From: Mobula hypostoma
Taxonomy: Eukaryota
NCBI RefSeq assembly: GCF_963921235.1
Contig: NC_086097.1
Coordinates: 120,716,001-120,780,000 of the forward strand
DNA: 64,000 nt
Direction of reading: 5' to 3'
Position numbers and translations under genes: made by a program. Under the pieces are notes generated by a model. That model was given only the letters and a program-made list of their open reading frames with translations. It ran no database searches and was not told the DNA's origin. This document shows, one piece after another, positions 49,616 to 50,371 of this stretch. Each line of letters starts with the position of its first letter. The stretch's first letter is position 1.

Positions 49616-49860
49616 TTAGTTGATGGAGCTGAAGTAGCTGGTATTTGATTGTAGATGCTGAAGTTATCATTCTCACAAAGCTTCCACATTGACCGAAACA
49701 TCTTTTCCAGAGCAAACTGCATATGCTTGCCACTTTCTACCGTAAAAGCATGTACTATTTAGCCAACACGAGGAAATCTGCAAATGCTGGAATTTCAAGC
49801 AACACACATAAAAGTTGCTGGTGAGCGCAGCAGGCCAGGCAGCATCTATAGGAAGAGGTA

Positions 49861-49898
49861 CAGTGGACGTTTCGGGCCGAGTCCCTTCGTCAGGACTA
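49861..49898 (-). ncRNA. Minimal hammerhead ribozyme motif (left arm)
   Basis: UAGUC-CUGACGA-A-GGGACUCGGCCC-GAAAC-GUC-CACUG; core intact, C-C mismatch at the first helix I pair. Confidence 0.7.
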
Positions 49899-49996
49899 AC
49901 TGAAAGAAGAGCTAGTAAGAGATTTGAAAGTGGGAGGGGGAGGTGGAGATCCCTCCTCCTCCCACTTTCAAATCTTTTACTAGATCTTCTTTCAGT

Positions 49997-50034
49997 TAGT
50001 CCTGACGAAGGCTCTCAGCCCGAAACGTTGACTG
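49997..50034 (+). ncRNA. Minimal hammerhead ribozyme motif (right arm)
   Basis: UAGUC-CUGACGA-A-GGCUCUCAGCCC-GAAAC-GUU-GACUG; core and helix I intact, GUU triplet, altered helix II. Confidence 0.7.
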
Positions 50035-50371
50035 TACCTCTTCCTAGAGATGCTGCCTGGTCTGTTGCGTTCACCAGCAACTTTGATGTGTGTTACAATT
50101 TAGCCAAGCATCGTTATATAATTCCACGGGAAGAGGCTACTAGGTGAACAAAAAAGAGTTAAACATGTGCTTAGAACTTCCTTGAAGAAATATGACAGCC
50201 TTACTAAATCCTGGGAATCTCTATCCCATGACCACTCAAAGCAGAGAAAAAGAACTTATGATAGCATTTAATAAAGGTGTGAGAAACACAAGGAAGTTCT
50301 GTGTATTTGGCTGCAGAGTAGAGCTTCACACCAATTACCCAAACCATCTGCTCAGCTGGCTACTATTTTGG

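What the first reader, a model, noticed from the sequence alone, without database searches (positions are those of the whole stretch)
49757..50107. Coding-free 331-bp foldback retroposon with a hammerhead ribozyme on each strand and a clean 10-bp TSD
Seen: two 143-nt inverted arms (about 91% matching), an 8-nt loop, TSD ATTTAGCCAA, and a CUGACGA..GAAAC-GUH hammerhead core in each arm on opposite strands. Known: Penelope-like elements carry minimal type-I hammerheads in their pseudo-LTRs and often insert with an inverted truncated copy. Inference: this unit inserted as a single event. Whichever strand is transcribed, the ribozyme is made second, after its own antisense, so the RNA should fold into a long dsRNA hairpin that locks the ribozyme. 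It could be a self-silencing siRNA/ADAR substrate, or a member of an undescribed MITE-like or retrozyme-like non-autonomous family.
Basis: partly seen in the sequence, partly recalled or inferred. Interest (0 to 1): 0.75.

Follow-up and report, generated by a model that had tools for sequence, protein, structure and literature searches.

The report
Hairpin-shaped Penelope retroelement insertion stub
This 331-base hairpin is a single, decaying insertion made of two tail ends of a very abundant Penelope-like jumping gene joined head to head, an arrangement already described for this class, and its two small ribozyme motifs are mutated and likely inactive passengers.

Summary
In detail: 143-nt arms at 91%, an 8-nt loop, a 10-bp direct repeat, and a minimal hammerhead core per arm. 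A relative's contig joins 49756 directly to 50098 with one copy of the repeat, so this is one insertion with a real TSD. It is an ordinary product of a known class, though. Both arms are the pseudo-LTR of a GIY-YIG Penelope-like element; a second copy at 31.6-32.2 kb runs into the endonuclease code. Head-to-head pLTRs with a one-sided tail, 8-10-bp TSDs and opposite-strand hammerheads are all published. Other loci show many different fold-back junctions (19 distinct ones listed of 510 joint rows). The arms differ by 9%, as much as the flanks differ from the empty-site species, and each hammerhead has a broken helix pair. A re-amplifying MITE/retrozyme-like family is not supported, though uniqueness of this junction could not be tested directly. 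Transcription, siRNA and editing are untested.

The parts
49757..49766 (+). Left target-site duplication copy, ATTTAGCCAA (possibly 14 bp from 49753 with one mismatch). Its last two A's are also where family alignments begin.
   Evidence: (D3); empty site in run X9 record 25 and loose ends before 49765
49767..49800 (-). 34-nt one-sided PLE 'tail' (3' extension present only on the left arm)
   Evidence: family ends pile up at 49765 (474/479/422/118 contigs) and at 49798 (129 contigs, X5); related tailed end at 55857-55923
49801..49951 (-). Left arm: 5'-truncated pseudo-LTR, sense on the minus strand, including the 8-nt 'loop' 49944-49951, which is parent sequence
   Evidence: contigs of other copies continue at 49952 into the same parent sequence as the 31 kb copy (table 7)
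49861..49898 (-). Minimal type-I hammerhead motif, left arm. The first pair of helix I is broken (C-C) and the 4th pair of helix II is lost.
   Evidence: 49865 and 49882 differ from the majority of laid contigs
49952..50094 (+). Right arm: 5'-truncated pseudo-LTR without tail, sense on the plus strand
49997..50034 (+). Minimal type-I hammerhead motif, right arm. Helix II has a C-C mismatch at pair 3 and the cleavage triplet is GUU instead of the family's GUC.
   Evidence: 50012 and 50029 differ from the majority of laid contigs
50098..50107 (+). Right target-site duplication copy
31610..32285 (-). Separate copy of the same family that identifies the parent: pLTR (87-90% to the arms), upstream GIY-YIG endonuclease C-terminus (31998-32159) and an inverted upstream piece (32156-32285). 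Not part of the insertion.

Best explanation
It is a single 5'-truncated insertion of an abundant endonuclease-bearing Penelope-like retroelement, made of two pseudo-LTR ends joined head to head between target-site duplications, likely formed by fold-back copying during integration and likely inert since. Shown: single insertion, PLE identity of both arms, tail on one arm, decay. Inferred steps: the element's GIY-YIG/RT protein, supplied by an intact copy, made staggered cuts 10-14 bp apart at an AT-rich site. It primed cDNA at the distal start site (the tail end) and stopped after about 185 nt. The cDNA 3' end then paired back through a 2-3-nt GG/CC microhomology and was extended into the inverted arm, which was joined to the other target end at or near the proximal, tail-less start site. 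The two hammerheads are passengers of the pLTR, and 'ribozyme second on both strands' follows from any head-to-head join.
For: Empty site: X9 record 25 lies on 49481-49756 (record 21-296), then on 50098-50368 (record 297-568). Both outer junctions are present in organism B (records 17, 24) and the right one in organism A (record 8). Parent: the copy at 31610-31754 continues into a protein 91% and 83% identical to ray proteins P0001/P0002, which carry a GIY-YIG match (E 5e-4, 2e-3, below the Pfam cut-off) and a CX3CxxC linker. Abundance: 79,754 / 51,753 / 31,068 / 17,909 contigs laid, summed depth 1e5-1e6 on the arms against 6-12 on unique flank (not a copy number). The family has two preferred 3' ends, at 49765 and about 49798, matching the two arms. 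All 19 distinct listed joints run left arm to right arm at different positions; 18 of 19 are within 31 nt of mirror symmetry (null 0.40, p 7e-7; permutation p 5e-5), and 7 of 7 after dropping the 12 at 49895-49904 (p 0.002). Arm-arm divergence is 13/143 (9.1%), against 49/547 (9.0%) for the flanks versus the empty-site species (Fisher p 1.0) and 8/531 (1.5%) versus organism B. Both arms carry the letter at 49912/49983 that is replaced in about 25-31% of depth in X1 but 88-96% in X9, consistent with a subfamily that expanded after the split. Literature: PMC3846280, PMC8557442, PMC4209133, PMC11167929.
Against: Uniqueness of this junction was not directly visible: no genome is held, and a contig matching the junction exactly would give no joint row. 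Only 15 of 510 joint rows and 12 of 424 'letters between' rows were shown, chosen for support, so the symmetry test is on a selected subset; some listed joints are marked 'between: not known'. Several joints have depth 50-220 and recur in 2-3 runs, which could mean amplified fold-back units. The empty site is one contig of depth 6.3 in one run and could be a secondary precise deletion. Arm divergence sits at the upper limit expected if the arms began identical after the split, so two different templates remain possible. The snap-back step itself is not shown.
Confidence: 0.85

Rival explanations
1. Same origin, different chemistry: both cut target strands were primed, one at each of the two RT start sites (dimeric protein), and the two truncated cDNAs were joined head to head by microhomology, rather than one cDNA folding back on itself.
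For: The lizard Poseidon protein cuts and extends both strands, starts at two sites that delimit the tail, and is predicted to be a dimer (PMC11167929). The two arms end at or near the family's two preferred 3' ends. At 50047/49848 the right arm shares its letter with the 31 kb copy and the left arm does not. The 31 kb copy has a twin-priming-like inversion.
Against: Independent truncation should not give near-mirror junctions, yet 18 of 19 listed joints and this locus (offset 8) are near-symmetric (selected subset). Both arms share subfamily letters against the 31 kb copy.
Confidence: 0.3
2. It is a member of a non-autonomous fold-back family that is itself transcribed and re-mobilised as a unit by PLE proteins.
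For: Either transcript would end in a pLTR 3' end that the protein could recognise; pLTR ends suffice in trans (PMC3846280). Some other junctions have depth 50-220 against a single-copy depth of 6-12 and recur across runs.
Against: There is no second copy of the unit in 64 kb, only parent-type copies. Junctions are heterogeneous. Contigs reaching 49952 continue into parent sequence (178/111/101/32 contigs, agreement 0.67-0.78). The arms are as diverged as the locus is old. A 143-bp duplex would be a poor RT template (inference).
Confidence: 0.07
3. The hairpin has been co-opted as a host dsRNA source (siRNA against the family, or an ADAR substrate) and is kept for that role.
For: The predicted duplex is very stable. 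In transgenic flies, siRNAs mapped to the inverted regions of rearranged Penelope copies (PMC3681739, passages). Six of the 7 transition differences leave G-U pairs on the + strand (two-sided p about 0.13, not significant).
Against: The arms are no more alike than neutral decay predicts, and there are no compensatory double changes among the 13 differences. The element is absent in organism C. No host-gene domain was found among 159 ORFs scanned; hits were RT, RT-RNase H and one ALKBH8_N (small exons would be missed).
Confidence: 0.05

Closest known systems
Canonical EN+ Penelope-like element insertion unit (Arkhipova et al. 2013, PMC3846280, passages; Craig et al. 2021, PMC8557442, passages incl. 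Fig. 2 legend)
   Same: Head-to-head inverted 5'-truncated pLTR, a 30-40-bp tail on one end (31 bp in Pen2a_Av, 34 here), TSD of 8-10 bp, palindromic or overlapping junction read as self-priming.
   Different: Here both halves are truncated inside the pLTR, so no ORF sequence remains. It is the shortest form of the unit.
Minimal type-I hammerheads (min-HHR) of metazoan PLEs (Cervera and De la Pena 2014, PMC4209133, parts 1-2 of 4)
   Same: CUGANGA, an unpaired nucleotide before helix II, G10.1-C11.1, GAAAC-GUH without helix III, 5-bp helix I. That paper already reports dual min-HHRs 100-700 bp apart on opposite strands and attributes them to truncated PLEs.
   Different: Both copies here carry a helix-breaking change. 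Opposite orientation cannot supply the tandem dimer these motifs are thought to need; single motifs showed no cleavage in that paper.
Poseidon of Anolis (Frangieh et al. 2024, PMC11167929, parts 1-2 of 4)
   Same: Two RT start sites delimiting the tail, an AT-rich target with an ATT motif (this TSD begins ATT), an AC-rich sequence at the tail-less end, and a hammerhead dispensable for insertion in vitro.
   Different: The ray family's close homologues carry the CX2-5CxxC linker that Penelope/Poseidon lack, so it is Neptune-type rather than Poseidon.
Non-LTR (animal) retrozymes (bioRxiv 10.64898/2026.07.22.740005, part 1 of 5 and passages)
   Same: Non-coding, PLE pLTR-derived, type-I hammerhead.
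   Different: They are defined as head-to-tail tandem repeats with at least two consecutive same-strand hammerheads; here there are two units, inverted, on opposite strands.
MITEs (definition from search listings and own knowledge)
   Same: Short, non-coding, inverted ends, flanked by a TSD.
   Different: The ends are retroelement 3' ends, unequal by 34 nt, not transposase-bound TIRs; no multi-copy uniform unit was seen.

Membership tests
EN+ Penelope-like element insertion | Sequence is the pLTR/3' end of an element encoding RT plus a C-terminal GIY-YIG endonuclease | tested here: met
   Arms 87-90% identical to the 31610-31754 copy, which continues into the EN C-terminus; its homologues P0001/2/4 hit GIY-YIG at E 5e-4 to 2e-3, below the curated cut-off
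EN+ Penelope-like element insertion | 5' truncation with an adjacent inverted 5'-truncated copy, head to head | tested here: met
EN+ Penelope-like element insertion | 30-40-bp tail on one end only | tested here: met
   34 nt at 49767-49800; two family end clusters
EN+ Penelope-like element insertion | Short TSD confirmed by an empty site | tested here: met
   X9 record 25, (one contig, one run)
Neptune-type PLE | CX2-5CxxC motif between RT and EN | tested here: met
   Present in homologues P0001-P0004; definition from PMC8557442. That region is not in the window. The motif is shared with Nematis and no tree was built.
Neptune-type PLE | RT phylogeny places it with Neptune | not tested
   No reference set of PLE RTs was fetched
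Minimal type-I hammerhead | Catalytic core CUGANGA, GAAA and NUH intact | tested here: met
   Both arms
Minimal type-I hammerhead | Helices I and II fully paired | tested here: not met
   Left: helix I first pair C-C, helix II 3 of 4 pairs. Right: helix II C-C at pair 3. The 31 kb copy keeps 9 of 9 pairs.
Minimal type-I hammerhead | Self-cleavage | not testable with these tools
   Needs an in vitro assay
Non-LTR retrozyme | At least two consecutive head-to-tail units with same-strand hammerheads | tested here: not met
   Units are inverted; definition
Non-LTR retrozyme | Abundant circular RNA | not testable with these tools
   No RNA holder listed
MITE-like non-autonomous family | Many dispersed copies of one uniform unit with the same internal junction | tested here: inconclusive
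   No second unit in the window and heterogeneous junctions elsewhere, but the own junction could not be counted genome-wide
MITE-like non-autonomous family | Symmetric terminal inverted repeats of DNA-transposon origin | tested here: not met
   Ends differ by 34 nt and are retroelement-derived

The most novel reading that the evidence does not exclude
Some of these fold-back stubs, possibly this one, are re-copied as whole units by Penelope-like proteins. They would form hairpin-shaped non-autonomous retro-families whose own dsRNA disarms the ribozyme and feeds small-RNA silencing of the parent. The high-depth junctions recurring across runs are the lead.
Probability: 0.07. Interest if true: 0.55.

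Novelty: new member of a known kind. Interest (0 to 1): 0.12.

Why it matters
As it stands it is a tidy, verified example (with an empty site) of a published insertion pattern, so it matters little alone. Its value is as one data point in a very large natural library. The near-mirror junctions and two fixed 3' ends across many ray loci could decide between self-priming and dual priming, the step of PLE integration still unvalidated in PMC11167929 and PMC3846280. If a junction proved amplified, it would be a new non-autonomous form.

Tried and rejected
No whole genome is held, so the junction could not be counted genome-wide. Rfam at gathering score gave 0 hits; at E<=10 it gave 38 hits, none a hammerhead, mostly non-specific miRNA-hairpin models below threshold, so a miRNA-gene reading was rejected. 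Metagenome scans for the loop junction and for the pLTR core each found 0. Since even the abundant core was absent, that collection lacks this host and the blank says nothing. Run X11 covers the left flank only to 49749 and says nothing about presence or absence; X1 has no cover at 49635-49696, so its left junction was not seen. No convincing TSD was found for the 31 kb copy (best: a 7-mer). The bacterial promoter/terminator scan is not meaningful for a vertebrate locus and was ignored. My first guess of the Poseidon clade was dropped after seeing the CX3CxxC linker. Look-ups of earlier findings by sequence, by place nearby and by the first word set were empty. Five paper searches listed no paper describing a re-amplifying fold-back PLE family or this ray family, judged from listings; subscription papers and Repbase were not searchable, and no supplements were opened.

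Full report
Observation. The described structure is present. The arms lie at 49801-49943 and 49952-50094 (143 nt, 91%, 8 nt apart) and differ at 13 positions. The RNA fold is -263.7 kcal/mol, z -29.8, with 0 of 100 shuffles as stable. ATTTAGCCAA occurs exactly twice in the window, flanking the unit. Each arm has CTGACGA-A-helix II-GAAAC-GTH, on opposite strands. Rfam reports no hammerhead (0 hits at gathering score; none among 38 hits at E<=10), so the assignment rests on the min-HHR anatomy in PMC4209133. The 331 nt include 34 nt found only on the left (49767-49800). The 'loop' is the left arm continuing 8 nt further into the parent sequence. The direct repeat can be read as 14 bp with one mismatch (D3).

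One insertion. Contigs of four runs were laid on 49480-50380 at 82% likeness. In run X9 (organism C) one contig lies on 49481-49756 and continues without extra letters on 50098-50368: an empty site with one copy of the repeat. Run X5 (organism B) has contigs across both outer junctions (49531-49791 and 50070-50339), and run X1 (organism A) has the right junction with 0 differences. No listed piece spans the whole element. The empty site rests on one contig of depth 6.3, and a later precise deletion is not excluded. However, both arms carry the letter at 49912/49983 that is the majority in A (other letter 25-31% of depth) and a small minority in C (other letter 88-96%), which fits insertion after the split.

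Parent. A second copy at 31610-31754 is 87-90% identical to the arms. It runs upstream into a frame ending ...LRLEEQHLIFRLGSLQPDGMNIDFSNFR. The search with that 54-aa piece returned 8 proteins among 8 candidates, the best 91% and 83% identical and named from Mobula hypostoma and Hypanus sabinus. Three of the five scanned hit GIY-YIG weakly (E 5e-4 to 2e-3, below the cut-off). The four displayed show an RT C-terminal part and a CX3CxxC linker, which PMC8557442 gives for Neptune and Nematis and not for Penelope/Poseidon. The host is therefore probably a ray and the family Neptune-type (no tree built). The family is huge: 79,754, 51,753, 31,068 and 17,909 contigs were laid, with summed depth 1e5-1e6 on the arms against 6-12 on unique flank (not a copy number). 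Other copies end at two places: 49765 (474, 479, 422 and 118 contigs, A-rich flanks, low agreement) and about 49798 (129 contigs in X5); a mixed group lies behind 50094 (124 in X1). These are the tailed and tail-less ends that this element's two arms use.

One-off or family. Contigs reaching the inner end of the left arm go on into parent sequence (178, 111, 101 and 32 contigs at 49952). One search lists 15 of 510 joint rows and 12 of 424 between-letter rows, giving 19 distinct joints. All 19 go from the left arm to the right arm at different positions, which I read as other head-to-head junctions at other loci. Fold-backs are thus a common and heterogeneous product. Of the 19, 18 lie within 31 nt of mirror symmetry (null 0.40, binomial 7e-7; permutation 5e-5); after dropping the 12 that leave at 49895-49904, where subfamilies diverge, it is 7 of 7 (p 0.002). 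This is a selected subset. Against my reading, several joints have depth 50-220 and recur in 2-3 runs. The uniqueness of this locus's own junction could not be seen: there is no genome, and the metagenome scans were blank even for the core. Earlier notes of this scan describe similar stubs of other lengths in this and other genomes; they are unchecked AI notes and are not counted as support.

Function. Arm-arm divergence is 9.1% (13/143). The flanks differ from the empty-site species by 9.0% (49/547; Fisher p 1.0) and from organism B by 1.5% (8/531). The arms are therefore no more alike than neutral decay predicts, and none of the 13 differences is compensated. By majority letters and the 31 kb copy, about 9 changes fall on the right arm and 3-4 on the left. 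The left hammerhead has lost the first pair of helix I and one pair of helix II; the right has a C-C mismatch in helix II and a GUU triplet; the 31 kb copy keeps all 9 pairs. In the full transcript the hammerhead pairs have probability 0.000, so the 'lock' is predicted, but a lone arm reaches only <=0.08 (no tertiary or dimer modelling). Single min-HHRs did not cleave in PMC4209133, and the lizard motif needed protein and was dispensable for insertion (PMC11167929). So there is probably little to lock. 'Ribozyme second on either strand' is a geometric property of every head-to-head pair. Transcription is untested. No host-gene domain was found among 28 + 131 ORFs, apart from one ALKBH8_N hit, and small exons would be missed.

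Mechanism (inferred). A PLE protein acting from an intact copy made a staggered cut at an AT-rich site and primed cDNA at the tail-end start site. Synthesis truncated after about 185 nt, the 3' end folded back through GG/CC microhomology, the inverted arm was copied, and it was joined at or near the tail-less site. The loop belongs to the tailed arm, as expected if that arm was made first. The main rival is dual priming at the two start sites followed by head-to-head joining, suggested by both-strand cutting and extension in PMC11167929. The 0.3 given to it is a split inside the same overall explanation, not an alternative to PLE origin.

Comparison with print. PMC3846280 (passages) describes inverted pLTRs with 8-10-bp TSDs, a 31-bp one-sided tail and palindromic head-to-head junctions ascribed to self-priming. 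PMC8557442 (passages) and PMC8969392 (passages) give this as the typical PLE arrangement. PMC4209133 (parts 1-2 of 4) reports dual opposite-strand min-HHRs 100-700 bp apart. PMC3681739 (passages) reports siRNAs from inverted Penelope regions in flies. The retrozyme preprint (part 1 of 5 and passages) defines retrozymes as tandem head-to-tail repeats, which this is not. No supplements were read. Five searches listed no description of a re-amplifying fold-back PLE family.

Verdict. Real and cleanly verified, but ordinary: a new member of a known kind, interest 0.12. The residual novel reading (amplified fold-back units) has probability about 0.07.

Noticed in passing
window 31610-32285: Second copy of the family: pLTR plus EN C-terminus on the minus strand, preceded by an inverted upstream piece of the EN code (32156-32285). 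A 33-nt stretch is present in both orientations (32123-32155 / 32253-32285). This looks like a twin-priming-type inversion rather than a head-to-head pair of 3' ends. Its hammerhead keeps all helix pairs.
   Followed up: partly
window 55857-56180: Third, more diverged PLE piece: a tailed inverted pLTR stub (55857-55923, 75% to the left end) directly followed by a sense ORF fragment with stops (55936-56178, about 70% to P0001-4); the match ends near 56180.
   Followed up: partly
joints, window 49895-49904: 12 of 19 listed fold-back joints leave the left arm just 5' of the hammerhead's helix I. This is also where related subfamilies diverge, so it may be an alignment edge; an earlier unchecked note (e1-9958889) reports real clustering there.
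   Followed up: partly
joints 49812>50070, 49818>50066, 49854>50030, 49900>49985, 49900>49995: Fold-back junctions of other loci with depth 120-220 against a single-copy depth of 6-12, some seen in 2 runs: amplified units, recurrent hot spots or a contig-mean artefact.
   Followed up: no
window 49511-49603: An unrelated moderately repeated sequence in the left flank (summed depth up to about 7,700).
   Followed up: no
window 36304-36901 / 37332-37938 and 61794-62114 / 62377-62694: Older, longer inverted repeat pairs (77% and 74%); 33036-39205 shows further nested inverted matches.
   Followed up: no
window 7633-8022: Two short inverted matches (33 nt at 94%; 25 nt at 100%) sharing a right arm near 7961-8022.
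   Followed up: no
window 9804-10316, 29303-30430, 44144-44479, 60149-60742, 5958-6161, 26144-26734: Broken reverse-transcriptase fragments (RVT_1), one RT-RNase H piece and one ALKBH8_N hit (recalled as common at LINE ends). At least 37% of the window is repeated within itself and no other host-gene domain was found.
   Followed up: no
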